A DNA stretch of 64,000 nucleotides from a virus. This document shows positions 14,234 through 64,000 of the stretch, piece by piece (position 1 is the first letter of the stretch; every line of letters begins with the position of its first letter). The stretch spans positions 33,862-97,861 of IMG/VR virus record IMGVR_UViG_3300036771_000052; one strand, given 5' to 3'. The notes under the pieces are model-generated. The model searched no databases. It saw only the letters and a program-made list of their open reading frames with translations, and was not told the origin of the DNA. The position numbers and the translations under genes were made by a program.

Positions 14234-14809
14234 ATGCTGCGGGTCCTTCTTTCGGGACTCGCCGCGCTGGTCGGGGTGTCGATGACGTGGTGCGACCCCC
14301 CGGCCTCCCTCGCCGATATGAGTGTGTATCCGACGGGGATTCACATCCCCGCTATCGGTGTTGATGGGAATCAACTTATCCCGTTGGGTTTAGCGAAGGA
14401 CCGCACACTTCAAACCCCACCGTTGTCCACACCACAGATTGGTGGCTGGTACACGGGAGCATCAGTCCCGGGTGATCCGGGAACTGCGATAATCATTTCC
14501 CACGTGGACGGGGACGGGAAGAAGGGTTTGTTTTACGATCTTTCCCGGGTTCAGGTGGGGGACGAGATTTCGGTTGACCGGTCTGATGGTCATATGGCTG
14601 TTTTCACGGTCACTAAGGTGGGGTTGTTTTGCAAGGAGAGAGCCGCGTGTCCCCGGGGGAAGAAAGTTTTTCCTTCCGCGGAGTTTTACTCCACGCAGTC
14701 TGAACCGCAACTTCATTTGGAAACTTGTGGTGGCAGGTTTGATGCGAAAGACAAAAACTATTTGGACGCGTTCGTGGTGTTCTCGACATTGACTGCGAGT
14801 TTCGGATGA
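14234..14809 (+). CDS. Class F sortase
   Basis: IPAIGVD, GWY....PG.PG.A.I.SHVD (His), L.LETCGG.FD (Cys), N-terminal hydrophobic anchor. Confidence 0.9.
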   Translation: MLRVLLSGLAALVGVSMTWCDPPASLADMSVYPTGIHIPAIGVDGNQLIPLGLAKDRTLQTPPLSTPQIGGWYTGASVPGDPGTAIIISHVDGDGKKGLFYDLSRVQVGDEISVDRSDGHMAVFTVTKVGLFCKERAACPRGKKVFPSAEFYSTQSEPQLHLETCGGRFDAKDKNYLDAFVVFSTLTASFG

Positions 14810-15807
14810 TCTTCGATGAGTTGTGGCAGGAGATGCTGTCCCGGAGGGACCCTCAACACACCACTGAGTTCCTTGCTTCTCCTGGCTTGTATGGGATTGA
14901 CACTTCGTCGTGGCAGGGGACGGTTCAGTGGTCGGCGGTCGCGGCGTCGGGTCACCAGCTGGTTTATGTGAAGGCTTCTGAGGGTGCGGGTTTGAGTTAC
15001 CCGACGTTGGATGCGCAATATCGGGGAGCTGTGGCTGCGGGGATGAGTGTGGGGTTGTACCACTTCGCCAACCCCGCTTTGACCCCTGAGGCGAACGCTG
15101 ACGCGTTCTCCACGCAAATCAACAGGTTGGGCGCCACGGTCAATCATTTGCCGCCAGCGCTCGACCTAGAGATTGGTTCTGGTGACTTGTCGGGGTGGTG
15201 TCAAGCGTTCATCGCTCGGCTTCGGCAGCAGATCAACTGGCAACCTGTGTGTGTCTATTCCGATGCGTCGTTCTTCAAAAACCAGATCGGCGAAGAATGG
15301 ATGGACGACGATATTGTTTTGTGGATCGCATCATTCAACAACAACCCCGGCCACCCGTCGTACATGTCTCCTCGGGTGGCGATCCATCAGTATTCCCAAT
15401 CCGGGAATGTTCCTGGTGTGGCGGGTGATGTTGACTTGGACTTTGCGATCTGGCCGCTCAACCAGCTTATCGGAGATGACGACTTGACCCCGCAAGAATC
15501 GCAGATGCTCACCGACATCCACCAAATGCTCCCCGTGATCACCTGGCTATACGGCCAATTCGCCGGCCTCGGACCAGACGGCACACCCGCACCATTCCCC
15601 GACGTCCCAGGATGGGAAACCCTCCCCGGGGGAACAAACCAACACTTGTCATTCCTGGACTACGCTCGACAAGCCAACGTACAGCTAGCCGGGTTGACAC
15701 AGTCGGTACAAAACATTATTTCCACCTCTGGTGGGACGGTGGATGCGAAGGGTTTGGCAGATCAGATCGTCGCCGAATTTGTGAACAAAATCCACAACAA
15801 TGTGTAA
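14806..15807 (+). CDS. Endolysin, GH25 muramidase
   Basis: GIDTSSWQG, YVKASEG, GLYHF, ALDLE, HQYS..G.VPGV.GDVDLD. Confidence 0.92.
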   Translation: MIFDELWQEMLSRRDPQHTTEFLASPGLYGIDTSSWQGTVQWSAVAASGHQLVYVKASEGAGLSYPTLDAQYRGAVAAGMSVGLYHFANPALTPEANADAFSTQINRLGATVNHLPPALDLEIGSGDLSGWCQAFIARLRQQINWQPVCVYSDASFFKNQIGEEWMDDDIVLWIASFNNNPGHPSYMSPRVAIHQYSQSGNVPGVAGDVDLDFAIWPLNQLIGDDDLTPQESQMLTDIHQMLPVITWLYGQFAGLGPDGTPAPFPDVPGWETLPGGTNQHLSFLDYARQANVQLAGLTQSVQNIISTSGGTVDAKGLADQIVAEFVNKIHNNV

Positions 15808-17134: not shown

Positions 17135-17297
17135 TGGCCAACATCAACATACCGTGTGGCCAAGATCAGATGGCCACCGGGGGTTGGCCGCTATAACGCG
17201 ACCGTGGCCACCCCACGATGGCCACGGTCATGTGATAGCGGCCAACACTACCTTGACACGATGGCCACCCTATCCCCCACATAAACCTTCATGGCCA
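17135..17297. repeat. TGGCCA cluster with long imperfect palindrome (17183-17246)
   Basis: Seven exact TGGCCA; arms gttggccgctat/atagcggccaac and gaccgtggcca/tggccacggtc. Confidence 0.8.
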
Positions 17298-17472
17298 CCT
17301 GTTCCGGCCGCATCCCACCACCCATCGCATCTGCGATCGCAACCTTGGCCGCCTCCTCAACCTCATCCCATAGCTTGGTCTGTGTCACCAGGTCCAACAC
17401 CGGGACCCGGATCATCCACCAGCCGTCTTCCTCGAACGCCTCGACCTTGAAGTGGATGAACGGCTCGGTCAT
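17248..17472 (-). CDS. HicB-like antitoxin-fold protein (solo)
   Basis: EEDGWWMIRVP.LDLVTQ....DEVEE.AK.AIA pattern; start ATG 17472 with RBS AGGAG. Confidence 0.7.
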   Translation of the reverse strand: MTEPFIHFKVEAFEEDGWWMIRVPVLDLVTQTKLWDEVEEAAKVAIADAMGGGMRPEQVAMKVYVGDRVAIVSR

Positions 17473-17524
17473 ACGTGCTCCTGAAGAGAGGGACCCCCCG
17501 CCACGTATCCTGTGACGGGGGGTC

Positions 17525-17953
17525 ATATTTGGACTCGGCAGCGAGTCGATTTAACATGCGGTGCTGCCATTCCGATGTAACTGCGGAGAATCGCCACCAC
17601 TGTTCACAACAGGTCAGCATGTAATGTCAGCGCGTGTTGCCATTGCACCACGGGACCATGTGGAGGTCCCGCCGGGGGTCGAACCCGGAATCTCGCTTAG
17701 ACATAGCCTGTCGTACTCAGATGCGGCGGATGCAGTTGTCGAGAATCTTAGAGCGTTCCTGAAGAATCTCGGGTTCCTCGCCTGCGTCTCTACCAGTTGG
17801 ACTACCATGGCTTGTGAAGTGTTTCTTTGAGTTCCATCACGAGTGATGGAGTGCCACGGGTAGGTCTCGAACCTACACTGTACAGACTCGGTACTGCTTT
17901 TTCTGGAGGATTTTCATCTTGCGCTCTTGCGCAGTACCGAGTCTAACACAGTC
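17525..17953 (-). ncRNA. Putative structured ncRNA with two permuted tRNA-like (T arm-acceptor-D arm) modules
   Basis: Two GGTTCG T-arms, each followed by a loop-closed 7-bp acceptor stem and then a D-arm; no credible ORF in the interval. Confidence 0.8.
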
Positions 17954-18709
17954 CTAGCCGAAAATGTAGTTCAGAACCTTCTCACCGATCACCTGTTCGG
18001 GTGATTCGATGCGCTTCGCTTCCTCCTTCGCCGCATGGACAGCGTTCTTCAGCTTCGTGATACGAGTGAGAATCTGCTCCCGCTCCGAAACAGGCATCGC
18101 ACCGCTGAACTTCACCCGAGTCCATTTGCCTTCAACGACGACTTCCTGGATGGTGACGAACTGTCCGGGTTGTTTATCCGTCGGCTGGAACACGGTGACC
18201 ACTTTCGGCTGTTGCGTCTGCCGCAAAGTAACCACCGGCTTCGACTTGTACACCCCCCGGCCGGAATCCTCCAACGTCCACTCGGTAGACGCCGAAAGCG
18301 TGGGGATGCGGGTGGCGAACGCTCGCAAATCGTCGAGCCTCTTATCCAGCCACAACAGATACGGCACCGGCGCGGCCTTGATGAGAGTCACCTCACCCAC
18401 CACCACATCAGCCTGCGCTTTACCTGATGAGTTGGTGAAATCTCTAGCCGCGGTGACGTCGAACAGTTCCGCCAACTGCTCCCTGGTGGCGTCGATCATC
18501 TCCTTCACTGTGGACTGGACTCGTTGTTCCTCAGGTACGAGTTCGAGTCCACCTTCCGCCGCCGGGGTGTACTCGCCGCGCATACCTTCCATCAATGCGG
18601 TCGGCTTGTCCAGCGCGTGATACCTTTCGGTCAAGCTCCGCATAACGGTTTTGCGGAGCTCACCTTCCTTCCCGACGATCGCGCCGAGAGTTTTCGGTTT
18701 CCCTGCCAT
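17954..18709 (-). CDS. 251-aa conserved protein of unknown function (recalled as DUF7873-like)
   Basis: LFDVTA.RD.TN...ADVVV, P.PYLL.L.K.L.DL, G.W...KFSGA.P, L..AV..A.EEA, GEKVL.YIFG match a widespread coiled-coil/beta-hairpin family; Pfam label unverified. Confidence 0.75.
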   Translation of the reverse strand: MAGKPKTLGAIVGKEGELRKTVMRSLTERYHALDKPTALMEGMRGEYTPAAEGGLELVPEEQRVQSTVKEMIDATREQLAELFDVTAARDFTNSSGKAQADVVVGEVTLIKAAPVPYLLWLDKRLDDLRAFATRIPTLSASTEWTLEDSGRGVYKSKPVVTLRQTQQPKVVTVFQPTDKQPGQFVTIQEVVVEGKWTRVKFSGAMPVSEREQILTRITKLKNAVHAAKEEAKRIESPEQVIGEKVLNYIFG

Positions 18710-18742
18710 CTGTGTTCCTTAATCTTGATCTTGAAGGGGGGG

Positions 18743-18986: not shown

Positions 18987-19670
18987 TTAACGCCGCGAAA
19001 ACACATACAACCGATCATGCATCCCCGACCACTGAGGAATCTCCACACCCGCAACCTCCTCAAACAGAGGTTCCTTAGGACAATCACACGCTCCATCATG
19101 CCAACACGCGCCGGTCCCTAACAGAACATGCATCTTCGGATCACCAGTACACCCCATACAACCTTCGCCAACATAAATGATCGTGTCACCGTCATACAGC
19201 TCCACCGTTTCATGTGGCCAATCCGCGTAGTGTTCCGGCCAACACATAAACAGTGTTCGTTCTCCCTTCCCCACCACATTGGTATGGTCGCCGGTGATGA
19301 CTTCGGTGAAGGTTTCCTCGCGGAGGGTCCAGTCGGAGCCGGGTGGCGGGTTGATGTCATACGCCACCACATCCAACCCCCGCTCTCGGAGAAGAGAGGT
19401 CCAGTAGCCGGCTCCGGCGCCGATCTCGATCAAACCATTCGGGGAGTACTTGATGATCGTGTCCAAAGCTTCATCGTTGGGGATGGCCCACGACCATTGT
19501 TTCCGCATGCTCTGATAGTTGGCTTCCCCTTTAGACACGCATTCGTAACAGTATTCCTCGGGTGCTTTGAGGAGTCGTGTCATGACGGGGATGTGTTCCT
19601 TCTGATGCTCAAACATTTCTTGATAAGCATCGAGGTACGGATTCTTGGTTGCTACCGCTGTGTCAGTCAT
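18987..19670 (-). CDS. Class I SAM-dependent methyltransferase-fold protein
   Basis: WAIP...AL, IEIGAGAGYW, VVAYD, LFMCWP, IYVGE. Confidence 0.7.
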   Translation of the reverse strand: MTDTAVATKNPYLDAYQEMFEHQKEHIPVMTRLLKAPEEYCYECVSKGEANYQSMRKQWSWAIPNDEALDTIIKYSPNGLIEIGAGAGYWTSLLRERGLDVVAYDINPPPGSDWTLREETFTEVITGDHTNVVGKGERTLFMCWPEHYADWPHETVELYDGDTIIYVGEGCMGCTGDPKMHVLLGTGACWHDGACDCPKEPLFEEVAGVEIPQWSGMHDRLYVFSRR

Positions 19671-37253: not shown

Positions 37254-38464
37254 TTACCACATTCCGGCGTCGGACAGGTGGGGAGCGTCGTGGTCGGAAG
37301 TGGATAAAGCTGTCCGTGCGGCGTATCAGGAGGTGTTACGCGGTGGTAGACAGCCGGTGGATGTGGCGGATGATGCTATTCGTTTGTGGCCGGCGGATGG
37401 GGAGATCATTGTGTCGGTCGAGTTGGAACGCGAGATTGTGGCCACCGAGGGAGCGTCGTGACCGACATTCAGTGGGTGGGTAAGCCGCTGCTTATTCAGA
37501 TGGTGAAACCCGAACGGGATAAAGACGATGCGGAGGTGTTCCTCCTCGCCTTCCTCATCGAGGTGTTTGCGCGTCCAGCGATTTTTATGTTCGGTTTGAG
37601 TTATGCGCATGGTTTGTTCCCGATGGTGCCGGCTGCTGGGTATTGGCAGTGTTTCTGGATCGGCGCCGCGATCGCATGGTTTATGGCGATGGTGAAGCCA
37701 CGTAAGACGTGGTATGAGAACTAACATGTACGTGTATCTCACCAGCGATTTCACTAACCCGGTCACGAAGGAAGCTCTCGGGTCGGGGATGACTCTCGAT
37801 AAATGCGGCGACAAGATCATCGGCGTGGAGTTTTTAAGTTTCCTCCGCGTCCAGGTCGGCGGGAGGGACATTATCGAGGAGCGGGACAAGCTTTATGAGG
37901 CGTTGCAGCGTATCGCTTCCGAGCGTTGTTTCATCGAGGACATCATGGGGAGTCCTTGCAGGGAACGTGGTCCTAGTTACAGGTTATGCGGTGCGTGTAT
38001 CGCCAATGAGACTTTACAGAAGCTAAGAGGCTGACTCATGTGTGGAATGTGTGAGAACCCGGCGGGACATATCGCCGCGGTGGACCAAACCAGGACGGAG
38101 CTCGGGGAGAACCTCGATAAAACCCTCACCTCGATCGGGAACGCGTTGAAAGACGGAGTCGATCCGTCGTTGGTGTGGATGAAAGTTGCGACCGATTTGG
38201 TGACGGTGTTTGAGATTCCCGACGACCGCCTCGAACTCGGCTACATGTTCGCGGAATGTTTGGTGCGGGACGCCGCGAGAAATGGCTGAACCGGTTTTAG
38301 GTCCGTCGAAAGATGGGATTTATCCGCGGTGTGTGTTCTGTCGCGGAGAAAACTATGGACCAGCGGTGATTGCGTACAGCCGTAGAGAGATTCCGTGTGT
38401 CGCTGTGGCTGGCTGCGGCGAGTACCTCCCGGAGTCCTACGTGTCGCTCCCGAAGGATGGGTAA
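37213..38464 (+). other. Run of small hypothetical CDSs (37213-37461, 37458-37724, 37714-38034, 38038-38289, 38282-38464)
   Basis: Tightly coupled start/stop overlaps. Confidence 0.55.
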
Positions 38465-39669
38465 TGAACCTCGACGACCTGATCGACCCACTGGATTTGA
38501 AACTTGCGGTGGAGGTGAAAGATGTATCGACGCAACGTCACCCGACGTTGCCGTTGACTATCTATAATTACACTACGCAGTGTCAGTTCCGCCGCAATTG
38601 GACCCCGACGACACGCTTGGCGCGGGGTTTGATTGTCCGCGATGATGGTGTTGTGGTGGCGCGGAGTTTCCCGAAGTTCTTCACTTATGGTGATCCGTTG
38701 GCGCCGGCTATCGGACCGGATGATTTGGTTGGTGTCACCGATAAGGTCGATGGTTCGTTGGGGATTGTGTATCCGACTCCGGCGGGTCCGGCTGTGGCTA
38801 CGAAGGCATCCTTCCAGTCGGAGCAGGCGATACATGCCACCAAGATTTGGTGGGAGCGTTATAAGGATGTGTTGATTCCGGTGGGGGTTACTCCGCTGGT
38901 TGAGATTGTGTATCCGTCGAACCGGGTTGTGGTTGATTATCACGGCATGGATGATCTTGTCCTCCTGGGTGGGATGGATATTGATACGGGATGGTTTGTT
39001 CGTGCGGATCGGATGGCGGCGTGGATGTCGTGGCCGGGTCCGGTCGCCGAACAATTCGGTTACACGACGTTCGCTGAGGTTGTCGCCGCTCCCCCGCGCG
39101 AGGGGAAAGAAGGTCTCGTCGTCCAGCTAGTGGACGGGGAGCGGGTGAAAATCAAACAGGACGACTATCTCGCTCTCCACCGGATTTTAACAGAGGTGAC
39201 GACAAGGAGAATCTGGGAGTTCCTCGCGGTGGAAGCCTGTTGGGATCAGGCTAAACCAAAAGAGGGGAAGACTCCCGCGGACTATTTGGAGTCGAAACTT
39301 CACTTGGATCGTAAGCGGATCGAGCAGTGTCACGCAACGGAGAACTGGAAGGAAGCGTTCCTCCAAAACGTCCCTGCGGCGTTCGAGGCGTGGCTGAACA
39401 AAACCGTTGAAGACCTCACCGCGAAGGCGAAAGCAGCGTACAAACGTGTCGCCAGGGACTACGGGTCCGCGGTCATGGCTTCTGGTCTGGACTTTGAAGA
39501 GGTGAAGAAACCGGAAAACCGCCACCAGTTCGTCAAGGCTGCGCAGGAGGTTGCGGTGGAGAACTGGCGCCTCACGGTGACGATGTTAGACGGGAACGAG
39601 TTTATGACGTGGGCGTGGCTTCAGTGTTACCCGGAGCATGAGAAGCCGTTCACGGTGGAGGAGCCATGA
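38464..39669 (+). CDS. RNA ligase, T4 Rnl1-like
   Basis: YNYT, RGLI, FPKFF, motif I KVDGSLG, EGLVV, RVKIK. Confidence 0.9.
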   Translation: MNLDDLIDPLDLKLAVEVKDVSTQRHPTLPLTIYNYTTQCQFRRNWTPTTRLARGLIVRDDGVVVARSFPKFFTYGDPLAPAIGPDDLVGVTDKVDGSLGIVYPTPAGPAVATKASFQSEQAIHATKIWWERYKDVLIPVGVTPLVEIVYPSNRVVVDYHGMDDLVLLGGMDIDTGWFVRADRMAAWMSWPGPVAEQFGYTTFAEVVAAPPREGKEGLVVQLVDGERVKIKQDDYLALHRILTEVTTRRIWEFLAVEACWDQAKPKEGKTPADYLESKLHLDRKRIEQCHATENWKEAFLQNVPAAFEAWLNKTVEDLTAKAKAAYKRVARDYGSAVMASGLDFEEVKKPENRHQFVKAAQEVAVENWRLTVTMLDGNEFMTWAWLQCYPEHEKPFTVEEP

Positions 39670-40589
39670 CGGGAACGCTGTTCATCACCAGGGGTTTGCC
39701 GGCGAGCGGGAAATCAACATTTGCTAAGAAGATCATTGAGTCCCGTCCGGCGGGGTCGGTGGTGAGGCTGTGTCGGGACGATTTCCGCGCGATGATGCTC
39801 CCATCTTACTACCGTCAACCGGAGTACCGCGCAGAGCAGATTGTGACTCTTGTCCAGCAGGGTCAGATCACCGCGTTGTTGTTGGCCGGGGTGGATGTGA
39901 TCGTGGACGACACTAATCTTCGAGCTCGCACCGTCAAAAGGTTAGCGATGATGGCGGAGAAAGCGGACGCGAAGTGGGAGTGTTTGGACCAGTTCCTTGA
40001 GGTTCCGGTGGAGGAATGCATCCGAAGGGATAAGGTTCGGGATAGTCCGATTGGAGAGATGGTGATTCGGGGGATGTGGCGGAAGTATTTGTCTCATGGT
40101 AGGCAGCTTCCTCTCCCGGAGTTTGACACGTGTGTGTTGGGGAAGCCGTATGTTCCCCCGGAGGGTGGGACGCCAGCTGTGATCGTGGACATCGACGGAA
40201 CTGTGGCGTTGATGAATGGTCGTGGACCTTACGACACCACAGGGTACGCAGAGGATAAACCGAACCTTCCGATTGTTGATGTGGTGCGGTTGGAGAAGAA
40301 AGCTGGGAACCACATCATTTTTTGCTCCGGTAGGGACAACAAGTTTTTCCCGGTGACACACAAGTGGATTGTAAAGAATGTGTTCGGCAAGCCGGACCCA
40401 GTGTTTTCCTTGTTTATGCGTCCCAACGACGATAAACGCAATGATGCGGTGGTGAAATTGGAGCTGTTCGACAAACACATCCGCCACGAATTCGATGTGA
40501 AAAGAGTCTATGACGACCGGGATCGTGTTGTTTCGGCTTACCGTGGAATAGGGTTGACCGTATTGCAGGTAGCGGAAGGAGATTTCTAA
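39666..40589 (+). CDS. pseT: Polynucleotide 5'-kinase/3'-phosphatase (T4 Pnkp/PseT-like)
   Basis: GLPASGKST, RDD, DDTN; HAD DIDGT, SGR, YDDR. Confidence 0.92.
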   Translation: MTGTLFITRGLPASGKSTFAKKIIESRPAGSVVRLCRDDFRAMMLPSYYRQPEYRAEQIVTLVQQGQITALLLAGVDVIVDDTNLRARTVKRLAMMAEKADAKWECLDQFLEVPVEECIRRDKVRDSPIGEMVIRGMWRKYLSHGRQLPLPEFDTCVLGKPYVPPEGGTPAVIVDIDGTVALMNGRGPYDTTGYAEDKPNLPIVDVVRLEKKAGNHIIFCSGRDNKFFPVTHKWIVKNVFGKPDPVFSLFMRPNDDKRNDAVVKLELFDKHIRHEFDVKRVYDDRDRVVSAYRGIGLTVLQVAEGDF

Positions 40590-62988: not shown

Positions 62989-63062
62989 CGCGACGTAGAG
63001 CAGCTCGGTAGCTCGCCAGCCTCATAAGCTGGAGGTCCCAGGTTCGAATCCTGGCGTCGCCA
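62989..63062 (+). tRNA. tRNA-Met(CAT), initiator-like (C1:C72 mismatch)
   Basis: Cloverleaf; anticodon arm ccagc-ctCATaa-gctgg; GGTTCGAATCC. Confidence 0.9.
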
Positions 63063-63071
63063 CGAAAGCAT

Positions 63072-63145
63072 AGCGGGATGGCGCAGTCTGGTAGCGCGCG
63101 AGACTCATAATCTCGAAGACGTGGGTTCAAATCCCACTCCCGCCA
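63072..63145 (+). tRNA. tRNA-Met(CAT) (A1:C72 mismatch)
   Basis: Cloverleaf; cgaga-ctCATaa-tctcg; GGTTCAAATCC. Confidence 0.88.
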
Positions 63146-63205
63146 CGGAGGTACCCGCTGTCCCGTTCCTAGTCCGTTCGTACCAGCGGGTACCTCTACA
63201 CCAAT

Positions 63206-63280
63206 CGGGGTGTAGCTCAGTTTGGTCAGAGCACTCGCTTTGGGAGCGAGGGGCCGTACGTTCGAATCGTACTATCCCGA
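63206..63280 (+). tRNA. tRNA-Pro(TGG)
   Basis: ctcgc-ttTGGga-gcgag; C1-G72. Confidence 0.9.
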
Positions 63281-63282
63281 CA

Positions 63283-63714
63283 GTGTCAATTGTTGTTGAA
63301 AAAGAGTGTACCCGTTGCGGTGAAGCCAGTTTGCATCATGTCCGAGACACCGGGAAAGTACAGGCATACTGCATTACCTGTACGCGAGCCTACTCGAAAG
63401 CTCACTACGAAGCGCATAGAGAGCAGCACAACGCAAGACGCTACGTTAATCAGCAGCGATACAGGCAAGAGGCACGTAAGATAGTAGATGAGTTGAAGTC
63501 GGTTCCATGTGCGGACTGCGGTTTGTCGTACCCACCATGGGTCATGGATTTCGATCATCTGGATGCTGATGCTAAGTTGGCAAACGTCGGCGATATGATT
63601 GGCAGAGGTGCGATTCGAAAGCTGTTGGCTGAAGTCGAGAAGTGTGAAGTGGTATGCTCGAACTGTCACCGAGTTCGTACGTGGAATCGGTCTCACGCCG
63701 AGAATGCAGCATAA
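63283..63714 (+). CDS. HNH endonuclease within tRNA cluster
   Basis: CADCG..YP..VMDFDH, EVEKCEVVCSNCHR.RT; GTG start right after tRNA-Pro. Confidence 0.85.
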   Translation: MSIVVEKECTRCGEASLHHVRDTGKVQAYCITCTRAYSKAHYEAHREQHNARRYVNQQRYRQEARKIVDELKSVPCADCGLSYPPWVMDFDHLDADAKLANVGDMIGRGAIRKLLAEVEKCEVVCSNCHRVRTWNRSHAENAA

Positions 63715-63726
63715 CTGAATAGACGT

Positions 63727-63799
63727 GCTTGTCTTAGCTCAGTGAGTAGAGCACCCGACCTGGGGTCGGGGGACCCCGATGCAACTCCGGGAGCGAGCG
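63727..63799 (+). pseudogene. Degenerate tRNA-Pro(TGG)-like
   Basis: D arm TAGCTCAG..GTAGAGC intact; C33 instead of U33; T loop TGCAACT; bulged acceptor stem. Confidence 0.6.
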
Positions 63800-63804
63800 C
63801 TTTT

Positions 63805-63878
63805 TGGCTTGTAGCTCAATTTGGCAGAGCATTCGGCTGTTAACCGAACGATTGTAGGTTCAAATCCTACCAGGCCAG
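63805..63878 (+). tRNA. tRNA-Asn(GTT)
   Basis: ttcgg-ctGTTaa-ccgaa; G73. Confidence 0.92.
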
Positions 63879-63938
63879 CGGCGCCGGGTGGCGGCGGGCG
63901 CCTACTTCGGTAGGGGTCGTCCCCCGGTGACCACAAAT

Positions 63939-64000
63939 GGGTTCGTAGCTCAATGGTAGAGCACTCGCCTGTCGAGCGAGCGGTTTGCGGGTTCGAATCC
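63939..64000 (+). tRNA. tRNA-Asp(GTC), truncated by window edge
   Basis: ctcgc-ctGTCga-gcgag; GGTTCGAATCC. Confidence 0.85.

What the first reader, a model, noticed from the sequence alone, without database searches (positions are those of the whole stretch)
17525..18709. Uncharacterised 251-aa protein followed by a ~430-nt RNA with two circularly permuted tRNA mimics
SEEN (minus strand, from the stop codon): a ~20-bp stem (agactcggtactgc/gcagtaccgagtct core) with a purine-rich loop. Module 1 = T arm gtagGTTCGAGAcctac, acceptor 3' strand ccgtggc, a linker with hairpin tccatcac/gtgatgga, acceptor 5' strand gccatgg, then D arm TAGTCCAACTGGTAGAGAC. A second hairpin follows (cgaga...tctcg). Module 2 = T arm ccggGTTCGACCcccgg, acceptor cgggacc-tccacat-ggtcccg, then D arm TGGTGCAATGGCAACAC, closed by agcg/cgct, with further hairpins after it. 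Neither module has an anticodon loop or free CCA end. KNOWN: the T-acceptor-D order is the topology of bacterial YrlA Y RNAs, which normally accompany Ro60. No Ro60/TROVE gene is visible in this window. INFERENCE: a Ro-independent ribonucleoprotein made of this protein and a tandem tRNA-elbow scaffold, possibly a decoy for tRNA-targeting defences. The phage also encodes Rnl/Pnkp tRNA repair and a tRNA cluster.
Basis: partly seen in the sequence, partly recalled or inferred. Interest (0 to 1): 0.9.

Follow-up and report, generated by a model that had tools for sequence, protein, structure and literature searches.

The report
Double tRNA-mimic RNA with DUF7873 partner
A phage gene of unknown function (DUF7873) is followed by a folded RNA of about 460 bases carrying two back-to-front, anticodon-less tRNA look-alikes, and this gene-RNA pair is kept together in many phages and bacteria without the Ro60 protein that normally partners such RNAs, so it probably forms an undescribed RNA-protein particle.

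Summary
On the minus strand, ORF 18709-17954 (251 aa) is a clear member of Pfam DUF7873. The 462 nt after its stop codon (17953-17492) fold into a large RNA with two circularly permuted tRNA-like modules in the order T arm, 7-bp loop-closed acceptor stem, D arm.

The RNA is conserved, not chance:
- At least one module was found downstream on the gene's strand in 160 of 168 fetched DUF7873 loci (both modules in 144).
- All stems covary heavily.
- In 61 Streptomycetaceae genomes, all 25 with the RNA have the gene, and none of the 28 without the gene has the RNA.

It is not in Rfam 15. Only module 2 gives a sub-threshold YrlA hit (25 bits against the gathering score of 69). I found no paper describing it.

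It appears independent of Ro60:
- The phage record has no TROVE gene.
- The Ro-binding motif is absent.
- Two complete phages that carry the pair lack TROVE.
- In Streptomycetaceae the TROVE genes are never adjacent to it.

DUF7873 has a confident predicted fold with no informative structural match.

Best reading: a Y-RNA-like ribonucleoprotein with a new protein partner. Its function is unknown, and the decoy idea is untested. The scan has flagged this same system before on other genomes.

The parts
17954..18709 (-). DUF7873 protein gene, 251 aa
   Evidence: Pfam PF25283 at E 1.7e-65, 221.6 bits against a cut-off of 27. There are 66 homologs in the protein database. The AF2 model has pLDDT 93.5 and shows four long helices plus a beta sheet.
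18716..18733 (-). Hexamer tract CAAGAU CAAGAU UAAGGA in the gene's 5' UTR, just before the start codon
   Evidence: It matches the RNA's own tract CAAGAU GAAAAU. Tandem hexamers of this type occur in the 50 nt before the start codon in 12 of 82 viral loci, against 0-2 of 82 in control regions (p = 0.0095).
17881..17946 (-). Clade-specific 15-bp hairpin enclosing the GCGC box and the hexamer tract
   Evidence: MFE -27.7 kcal/mol, z = -7.2. The arms differ but still pair in the relative L001, and L161 can form a hairpin at the same position, by eye.
17922..17927 (-). P1 helix, 5' strand (AGAGCG)
   Evidence: It pairs with 17755-17750. The helix covaries across loci, for example GGAGCG/CGCUCC, GGGAGA/UCUCCC and GGAGUA/UACUCC.
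17898..17921 (-). Single-stranded hexamer-repeat tract (CAAGAU GAAAAU CCUCCA GAAAAA)
   Evidence: A tract with period 6 is conserved in most loci. No covarying partner was found in an all-against-all column scan.
17786..17887 (-). Module 1: anticodon-stem-like strand, 5-nt variable-loop analogue, T arm, 7-bp acceptor stem closed by a 41-nt loop, D arm
   Evidence: Model R1 scores it 64.2 bits, but this sequence was in the seed. In alignment A3 the T, acceptor and D helices are 96-97.5% paired, and 14 of 15 pairs show double compensatory changes.
17742..17785 (-). Return strand of the anticodon-like stem (GCAGGC), two AAGAUUCU-type direct repeats and the P1 3' strand CGCUCU (17755-17750)
   Evidence: plus comparison with L001, L161 and L164.
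17581..17735 (-). Module 2 with its enclosing long-range helices: CGCCGC 17728-17723 pairs with GUGGCG 17597-17592, and ACGACAGG 17714-17707 pairs with CCUGUUGU 17613-17606
   Evidence: Rfam YrlA scores 25.1 bits, E 0.005, at 17600-17717. R1 scores 34.7 bits, E 1.2e-7, at 17601-17702, and module 2 was not in R1's seed. The helices covary; the acceptor stem is 98% paired and all 7 pairs covary.
17492..17524 (-). Terminal 13-bp hairpin with loop CAGGAUA, the likely 3' end or terminator
   Evidence: z = -5.7. In the alignment it is a 10-bp helix with 9 covarying pairs. In Herpetosiphon the equivalent hairpin is followed by a U run.

Best explanation
This is one instance of a widespread, unnamed two-part module: a DUF7873 protein gene and, about 25 nt after its stop codon, a structured non-coding RNA of about 440 nt.

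RNA architecture. Two tRNA-like 'heads' have canonical T-loop and D-loop sequences that should form the tRNA elbow. Each has a 7-bp acceptor stem closed by a loop that often still reads discriminator-CCA. They sit on long helices that replace the anticodon arm. The RNA also has a single-stranded tract of six-base repeats and a conserved terminal hairpin.

What is shown: the architecture, its covariation, and the strict coupling of RNA and gene across genomes.

What is inferred:
1. Protein and RNA form a particle that does not need Ro60. The protein holds the non-tRNA scaffold, most likely the hexamer tract.
2. In this phage a matching tract on the gene's own ribosome-binding region would let the protein limit its own synthesis.
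3. The two tRNA-like heads engage factors that read the tRNA elbow and acceptor end, such as RNase P, the CCA-adding enzyme, modification enzymes or tRNA-directed toxins. This would tether, titrate or present them, as Y RNAs tether partners to Ro60.
For: Identity and structure:
- The protein matches DUF7873 at E 1.7e-65.
- The RNA folds well beyond shuffles (z = -5.1).
- nhmmer finds both modules downstream on the gene's strand in 144 of 168 loci and one module in 16 more, with no minus-strand hits.
- On 81 sequences, 88.6% of cells pair, against 70.2% in shuffles and 32-47% with slid partners. The covariation score is 0.48 against 0.16, reached by 0 of 500 shuffles.
- Further covarying helices enclose module 2 and form the terminal hairpin.

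Coupling of gene and RNA:
- In 61 Streptomycetaceae genomes, 33 have the gene. 25 have the RNA, all among those 33, with the RNA 70-230 nt (mostly under 100) past the matched part of the gene. None of the 28 genomes without the gene has the RNA (p = 1.7e-10).
- In two Herpetosiphon genomes and one Ktedonobacterales genome the RNA is encoded elsewhere, with no DUF7873 within 1.5 kb. In H. aurantiacus it has its own promoter-like site and a U-tailed terminator, so it is an RNA in its own right.
- No other neighbouring gene is conserved.

Hexamer tract and CCA:
- The hexamer tract recurs in the 5' UTR in 12 of 82 viral loci, including this one.
- NCCA follows the acceptor 3' strand in 44 and 50 of 128 RNAs for modules 1 and 2 (chance is 1.6%).

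Ro60 independence.

Not previously described: no Rfam family reaches its gathering score in the window or in 13 related loci. No paper was found.
Against: - There is no direct evidence of transcription, binding or function.
- DUF7873 is mildly acidic as a family (median pI 6.0) and has no recognisable RNA-binding or catalytic fold.
- The 5'-UTR hexamer tract is present in only about 15% of viral loci and 1 of 77 bacterial loci. A general 6-mer sharing test between UTR and RNA was negative.
- 8 of 33 Streptomycetaceae genomes with the gene had no RNA hit at E <= 1e-10. Some may be variants that keep only module 2, and the genome search used strict filters.
- TROVE-like hits are somewhat more common in genomes with DUF7873 (19 of 33 against 9 of 28, p = 0.07). 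One jumbo phage has TROVE 9 kb from DUF7873. Some cooperation with Ro60 is therefore not excluded.
Confidence: 0.6

Rival explanations
1. It is a divergent YrlA-type Y RNA that works with a Ro60 (Rsr) protein supplied by the host or by the missing part of the phage genome. DUF7873 would be an accessory factor or unrelated.
For: Module 2 gives the only Rfam hit, to YrlA (25.1 bits, E 0.005, whole model aligned). Model R1 cross-detects a YrlA-like RNA 1.2 kb upstream of a TROVE gene in one Streptomycetaceae genome at 54.9 bits, so the modules are probably related. The record is only 81% complete. One jumbo phage has TROVE 9 kb from DUF7873. TROVE-like hits are mildly enriched in genomes with DUF7873 (p = 0.07).
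Against: The score is far below the gathering score of 69. The GNCGAAN0-1G motif is found at the expected place in 0 of 64 viral and 10 of 64 bacterial RNAs. TROVE is absent from two 100%-complete phages that carry the pair, from 14 of 33 Streptomycetaceae genomes with DUF7873, and from the Nocardia and Ktedonosporobacter genomes checked. TROVE is never adjacent, whereas YrlA genes lie within 4 kb of Ro60 on the same strand (PMC4201824). The RNA tracks DUF7873, not TROVE.
Confidence: 0.12
2. It is a defence or counter-defence cassette. The tRNA-like heads act as bait for factors that attack the tRNA acceptor end or elbow, or the RNA neutralises a toxic DUF7873 in the manner of a type III toxin-antitoxin pair.
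For: It is a self-contained two-part unit with no conserved neighbours. It is present in only about half of related genomes (33 of 61). It is carried by many unrelated phages, often inside tRNA gene arrays. This phage also carries Rnl1-like and Pnkp tRNA repair genes.
Against: There is no anticodon loop, so it cannot be bait for anticodon nucleases. The RNA lies downstream of the gene and has no tandem antitoxin-type repeats, unlike type III systems. DUF7873 has no nuclease-like fold match. I did not scan DUF7873 or its neighbours against the PADLOC defence library. No toxicity data exist.
Confidence: 0.15
3. It is only a cis-acting 3' UTR. The tRNA-like structures act as RNase P/Z processing marks and stabilisers for the DUF7873 mRNA or for neighbouring tRNA transcripts.
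For: The RNA starts about 25 nt after the stop codon with no promoter-like site between. In Gordonia phage GodonK the pair sits inside a tRNA array on the same strand. The 7-bp acceptor stems with encoded NCCA look like RNase P substrates (M. smegmatis YrlA is cut by RNase P, PMC4201824).
Against: About 400 nt of architecture are conserved beyond the tRNA-like parts: P1, the long-range helices, the hexamer tract and the terminal hairpin. The RNA is encoded away from the gene in Herpetosiphon and Ktedonobacterales, with its own promoter-like site and terminator in H. aurantiacus.
Confidence: 0.1
4. The modules are decayed ordinary tRNA genes or a chance juxtaposition.
For: Model R1 also gives a weak hit (22.8 bits) across the junction of two adjacent tRNA-Met genes at 63024-63119. 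Tandem tRNA genes can therefore imitate the permuted order, and such a duplication may be how the modules arose.
Against: The permuted order, both loop-closed acceptor stems and the enclosing helices are kept with many compensatory changes across several bacterial phyla and across phages.
Confidence: 0.01

Closest known systems
YrlA-class Y RNAs with Ro60/Rsr (Rfam RF02553; Chen et al. 2014, PMC4201824), especially the M. smegmatis form with a 7-bp acceptor stem
   Same: Both have a tRNA-like domain in the order T arm, loop-closed acceptor stem, D arm, mounted on a stem formed by the flanking sequence. Both have canonical T- and D-loop sequences. Both are encoded next to a dedicated protein gene on the same strand and occur in bacteria and phages. 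The M. smegmatis RNA is cut by RNase P and receives CCA, which fits the 7-bp stems and encoded NCCA seen here.
   Different: The partner gene is DUF7873, not TROVE/Ro60. There are two heads (one or three in some relatives) instead of one. This RNA has a hexamer-repeat tract, the P1 helix and a conserved terminal hairpin. It has no GNCGAAN0-1G Ro-binding motif. The RNA is about 440 nt, where the Rfam YrlA model has 114 positions. The Rfam score is 25 against the 69 required.
Circularly permuted tRNA genes (Cyanidioschyzon merolae) and two-piece permuted tmRNA; both recalled from general knowledge
   Same: The 3' half (T arm, acceptor 3' strand, CCA) is encoded upstream of the 5' half (acceptor 5' strand, D arm).
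   Different: Those genes are processed into functional tRNA or tmRNA with an anticodon arm or a tag reading frame. Here the anticodon arm is replaced by long helices. ARAGORN finds no tRNA or tmRNA. Unlike the tmRNA tRNA-like domain, a full D arm is present.
Type III toxin-antitoxin systems (ToxIN and relatives; from general knowledge)
   Same: A protein gene and a structured RNA form a self-contained, patchily distributed unit found in bacteria and phages.
   Different: In those systems the RNA is a tandem array of short repeats upstream of an endoribonuclease toxin. Here it is a single large RNA downstream of the gene, with no such repeats and no nuclease-like fold.

Membership tests
Pfam DUF7873 (PF25283) | Match to the family profile above its gathering score | tested here: met
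   221.6 bits against a cut-off of 27; residues 8-250 align to profile positions 4-242 of 244.
YrlA / bacterial Y RNA (Rfam RF02553) | Covariance-model score at or above the gathering score (69 bits) | tested here: not met
   25.1 bits, E 0.0053, for module 2 only. There was no YrlA hit at gathering threshold in the window or in 13 related loci.
YrlA / bacterial Y RNA (Rfam RF02553) | tRNA-like domain in the order T arm, closed acceptor-like stem, D arm, closed by a stem of flanking sequence | tested here: met
   Both modules have this order, and their stems covary.
YrlA / bacterial Y RNA (Rfam RF02553) | GNCGAAN0-1G motif near the 5' end, the presumed Ro60 contact (PMC4201824) | tested here: not met
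   Absent from the window RNA. At the expected place it occurs in 0 of 64 viral and 10 of 64 bacterial RNAs.
YrlA / bacterial Y RNA (Rfam RF02553) | Encoded within about 4 kb of a Ro60 (TROVE) gene on the same strand (PMC4201824) | tested here: not met
   There is no TROVE match in the 97,861-base record, which is 81% complete. TROVE is never adjacent to DUF7873 in 61 Streptomycetaceae genomes.
YrlA / bacterial Y RNA (Rfam RF02553) | Bound by Ro60/Rsr in cells | not testable with these tools
   This needs immunoprecipitation.
tRNA | Cloverleaf with an anticodon arm and free acceptor ends | tested here: not met
   ARAGORN and Rfam RF00005 find no tRNA at 17492-17953. The anticodon arm is replaced by long helices.
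tmRNA (including the permuted two-piece form) | tRNA-like domain plus a tag reading frame, detectable by ARAGORN or Rfam | tested here: not met
   There is no tmRNA call by ARAGORN and no Rfam tmRNA family hit up to E = 10.
Type III toxin-antitoxin | Tandem array of antitoxin RNA repeats upstream of the toxin gene | tested here: not met
   The only tandem repeat is an 8-nt unit in 2 copies. The RNA lies downstream of the gene.

The most novel reading that the evidence does not exclude
RNase P cuts inside the NCCA-bearing acceptor loops. This turns the RNA into a multi-piece particle with one or two free, tRNA-like CCA ends held together by the long helices and by DUF7873. Such ends could be aminoacylated or otherwise modified. 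The particle would then act as a non-ribosomal tRNA surrogate: a sensor, a sink or a substrate carrier for enzymes and toxins that act on charged tRNA ends, in both bacteria and their phages.
Probability: 0.12. Interest if true: 0.9.

Novelty: new variant of a known kind. Interest (0 to 1): 0.8.

Why it matters
Y RNAs with tRNA-like domains are known only as partners of Ro60. This RNA has the same kind of head, but doubled, on a larger conserved scaffold. It is tied to a different protein of unknown fold and occurs in several bacterial phyla (Streptomyces, Nocardia, Chloroflexota, Myxococcota, cyanobacteria) and in phages of many hosts.

That points to a second family of tRNA-mimic ribonucleoproteins missing from current RNA libraries. 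In the cultured phage examined (Gordonia phage GodonK) the RNA region is unannotated apart from a small reverse-strand ORF, and the gene is labelled hypothetical in every cultured-phage hit listed.

Cultured carriers exist, including Gordonia phage GodonK, Arthrobacter phage Mimi, Vibrio and cyanobacterial phages, and about half of the Streptomycetaceae genomes sampled. The question of what tRNA mimicry outside translation is for is therefore directly testable.

Tried and rejected
- Close DNA relatives among cultured phages: none found.
- A single-sequence scan of viral contigs found nothing. The alignment-based scan worked.
Only L001, L161, L162 and L164 represent the window's own clade.
- Fold searches gave nothing usable. 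Foldseek against PDB had no hit at E <= 1e-3; the top hit was Rogdi (TM 0.26), followed by Cas7/Cascade at E about 1e-2 with TM 0.13. I considered the Cas7 lead because Cas7 binds RNA in 6-nt steps. I rejected it because the VIA second look gave no Cas7 chain with Z >= 2. The VIA wide search gave a best Z of 7.9, in the helical-bundle noise range. BFVD gave nothing.
- The Atlas gave only unnamed phage clusters and DUF6847/DIP1984 (TM 0.45 by query, 0.66 by hit).
- Generic 6-mer sharing between the 5' UTR and the RNA was not above controls. Only the specific tandem-hexamer pattern is enriched.
- An all-against-all column scan found no covarying partner for the hexamer tract and no pseudoknot. 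The alignment may be too rough to see one.
- Isotype of the heads: module 1's D arm is closest to tRNA-Leu-type D arms in 102 of about 125 RNAs. Module 2 is ambiguous (Arg, Phe, Gln, Asn) and not specifically Gly. The reference set was small and phage-biased.
- Conserved neighbouring genes: none.
Full report
WHAT IS THERE

The window is part of a 97,861-base viral contig estimated to be 81% complete.

On the minus strand, ORF 18709-17954 encodes a 251-aa protein. It matches Pfam DUF7873 over its whole length (E 1.7e-65). No PHROG family matches it.

The next ORF starts at 17472. The 481 nt in between fold far better than shuffled sequence (z = -5.1).

- A 15-bp hairpin with an A-rich loop.
- Module 1: T arm GUAGG-UUCGAGA-CCUAC, acceptor strands CCGUGGC and GCCAUGG joined by a 41-nt loop that holds a small hairpin, and a D arm.
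- Module 2: T arm CCGGG-UUCGACC-CCCGG, acceptor strands CGGGACC and GGUCCCG joined by UCCACAU, and a D arm, closed by AGCG/CGCU.

ARAGORN and the Rfam tRNA and tmRNA models see nothing here. The only Rfam signal is YrlA on module 2: 25.1 bits against a gathering score of 69.

IS IT MORE THAN CHANCE?

Yes.

Loci collected. The protein has 66 homologs in the large protein database, many on contigs of 90-150 kb. Scans based on alignments of these proteins fetched:
- 80 viral loci (105 relatives found).
- 80 bacterial loci. Hosts include Streptomyces, Nocardia, Herpetosiphon, Ktedonobacteria, Kofleriaceae and cyanobacteria.
- 8 metagenome loci.

RNA presence. T-loop motifs lie about 90 and 235 nt after the stop codon in most loci. 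Profile HMMs of the two module regions gave, over 168 loci:
- both modules in 144 loci;
- one module in 16;
- none in 8, of which 7 had enough downstream sequence to judge;
- every hit on the gene's strand, with module 1 starting a median of 82 nt after the stop.

Covariation:
- An alignment of 128 distinct RNAs gives a consensus with strongly covarying T, acceptor and D stems for both modules. For example, the seven acceptor pairs of module 2 are 97-99% paired, with five or six pair types each.
- Long-range helices enclose module 2.
- A helix, P1, encloses the hexamer tract plus module 1.
- The terminal hairpin has 10 pairs, 9 of them covarying.
- On an independent tool alignment of 81 sequences, 14 of 15 predicted pairs show double compensatory changes.
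- The 27-pair structure I specified is 88.6% paired, against 70.2% in shuffles and 32-47% when partners are slid. Its covariation score is 0.48 against 0.16, reached by 0 of 500 shuffles.

Covariance model. Model R1, built from module 1 and its 3' flank, scores the window's module 1 at 64.2 bits; that sequence was in the seed. It scores module 2, which was not in the seed, at 34.7 bits (E 1.2e-7). There is no other copy in the phage record.

COUPLING TO THE PROTEIN

No neighbouring gene is conserved across loci. The unit is the gene plus the RNA.

In a sample of 61 Streptomycetaceae genomes:
- DUF7873 is present in 33.
- The RNA (R1, E <= 1e-10) is present in 25. All 25 are among the 33, and the RNA lies 70-230 nt (mostly under 100) beyond the matched part of the gene.
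- None of the 28 genomes without the gene has the RNA (Fisher p = 1.7e-10).
- The 8 genomes with the gene but no RNA hit may include variants in which module 1 is replaced by a plain hairpin while everything else is kept. I saw such variants in L085, L117, L125, L153 and L160.

The pair can also be unlinked. In two Herpetosiphon species and a Ktedonobacterales genome the RNA is absent next to the gene. A full copy lies elsewhere in the genome, with no DUF7873 within 1.5 kb.

In H. aurantiacus that copy has:
- a promoter-like site (TTGCCC-17-TACAAT) a few bases before the GCGCAAGAGCGC box;
- a hairpin followed by a U run at its end.

This marks the RNA as an independent transcript of about 365 nt and fixes its likely boundaries. 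By analogy, the window RNA would run from about 17931 to 17492.

RELATION TO Ro60 AND YrlA

The head topology is that of YrlA. R1 even picks up a YrlA-like RNA 1.2 kb upstream of a TROVE gene in one Streptomycetaceae genome, on a different contig from that genome's DUF7873 locus. The heads are therefore probably related, but the two systems are distinct.

The defining YrlA features fail here:
- The Rfam score is too low.
- The GNCGAAN0-1G motif described by Chen et al. (PMC4201824) is absent from the window. At the expected place it is found in 0 of 64 viral and 10 of 64 bacterial RNAs.
- No TROVE gene is in the record.
- Two 100%-complete phage records with the pair have no TROVE. One jumbo phage has it 9 kb away.

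In the 61 Streptomycetaceae genomes, TROVE-like hits occur in 19 of 33 with DUF7873 and 9 of 28 without. They are never adjacent to it (p = 0.07). All of these hits are partial, covering about 75 of the profile's 442 positions, so they are TROVE-like rather than proven Ro60 orthologs.

FEATURES THAT BEAR ON MECHANISM

1. Acceptor loops. The acceptor stems are 7 bp. The loop begins with discriminator-CCA in 44 of 128 RNAs (module 1) and 50 of 128 (module 2), where chance is 1.6%. The window's module 2 reads U-CCA-CAU. M. smegmatis YrlA, the one Y RNA with a 7-bp stem, is cut by RNase P and receives CCA in vivo (PMC4201824). RNase P processing is therefore a concrete prediction.

2. Hexamer tract. 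A tract of six-base repeats lies between P1 and module 1. Its consensus is CAAGCU GAAACU GAAGCU; in the window it is CAAGAU GAAAAU. I found no covarying partner for it. The same kind of tract, CAAGAU CAAGAU UAAGGA, sits immediately before the start codon of the window's gene. Such tracts occur in that position in 12 of 82 viral loci, against 0-2 of 82 in control regions, but in only 1 of 77 bacterial loci (p = 0.0095). This fits a protein that binds the repeats and, in some phages, its own mRNA. That is an inference.

3. The protein. The AF2 model is confident (pLDDT 93.5): four long helices alternating with strands that form a sheet with a long hairpin. It has no informative match in PDB, BFVD or the Atlas. 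The family is mildly acidic. It has conserved aromatic residues, a few conserved basic residues and a DxxAARDFxN motif.

CONTEXT

- The phage carries a T4 Rnl1-like RNA ligase (38395-39669, at the Pfam cut-off) and a clear Pnkp (39666-40589).
- It has a tRNA cluster from 62989 to the window end.
- Cultured phages with DUF7873 include Arthrobacter phage Mimi, Gordonia phages GodonK, Ziko, Volt and Fryberger, Pseudanabaena phage PA-SR01 and about 29 Vibrio phages. In every hit listed the gene is annotated as a hypothetical protein.
- In GodonK the gene sits inside the tRNA array on the same strand. The 500 nt after it are unannotated apart from a small reverse-strand ORF.
- R1 also gives a weak hit across the junction of the two adjacent tRNA-Met genes in this window. 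This shows how a tandem tRNA duplication could have given rise to a permuted module.

VERDICT

It works like a Y RNA but is not a member of the YrlA family by the tests above.

I found it neither in Rfam 15 nor in the papers searched. Earlier notes of this scan report the same system on at least 61 other genomes. My results agree with them and add:
- the genome-level co-occurrence table;
- the unlinked stand-alone RNA with a promoter-like site and a terminator;
- the variant that lacks module 1;
- a quantified test of the 5' UTR hexamer tract.

Noticed in passing
window 38395-40589 (+): This is a T4-type tRNA repair pair. A 424-aa Rnl1-like RNA ligase matches PF09511 at 28.4 bits, right at the cut-off. 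A 307-aa Pnkp follows, with a kinase domain plus a HAD phosphatase domain (PF25109, E 1e-44).
   Followed up: partly
window 62989-64000 (+): This is a tRNA gene cluster: Met, Met, Pro and Asn, plus two further Rfam tRNA hits, one cut by the window end. Model R1 gives a 22.8-bit hit across the junction of the two tandem tRNA-Met genes (63024-63119). This suggests how permuted modules could arise from tandem tRNA duplication.
   Followed up: partly
window 17248-17472 (-): A 74-aa ORF immediately downstream of the RNA has a weak HicB-like antitoxin PHROG match (E 6e-4). I looked for no HicA partner.
   Followed up: no
window 18987-19670 (-): The 227-aa ORF just upstream of the DUF7873 gene has weak SAM-methyltransferase Pfam hits (below cut-off) and matches phrog_19090, of unknown function. 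Whether it is linked to the cassette in relatives was not checked.
   Followed up: no
L161:1038-1500: A close metagenomic relative (58% protein identity) carries a third permuted tRNA-like module after module 2. The number of heads therefore varies from one to three across the family.
   Followed up: partly
L085, L117, L125, L153, L160 (Streptomyces): In these variants module 1 is replaced by a plain hairpin on the same stem. The hexamer tract, P1, module 2, the 3' domain and the terminal hairpin are all kept. Module 1 is therefore dispensable in some lineages.
   Followed up: partly
L170:1285-1694 (-), Herpetosiphon aurantiacus: This is a stand-alone copy of the RNA, far from the DUF7873 gene. 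It has a promoter-like site just before the GCGC box and a U-tailed terminator hairpin.
   Followed up: yes
L162:3741-4020: In this relative a small ORF of about 95 aa (Cys-rich, possibly a zinc ribbon by eye) is inserted between the DUF7873 gene and the RNA.
   Followed up: no
Terminal hairpin loops across loci (window 17505-17511): The loop of the terminal hairpin keeps a GG(A/C)UA(C/U)-like sequence across distant clades, while the stem covaries. This was seen by eye in about ten loci. That is more than a plain terminator would need.
   Followed up: no
Module 1 D arm (window 17786-17802): Module 1's D arm has a 3-bp stem and an AAnUGGUAGA loop. It is closest to tRNA-Leu-type D arms in 102 of about 125 RNAs. 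Module 2 has no clear isotype in the same test.
   Followed up: partly
window 14806-15807 (+): A 333-aa ORF is a glycoside hydrolase family 25 lysin (E 3.9e-37).
   Followed up: no
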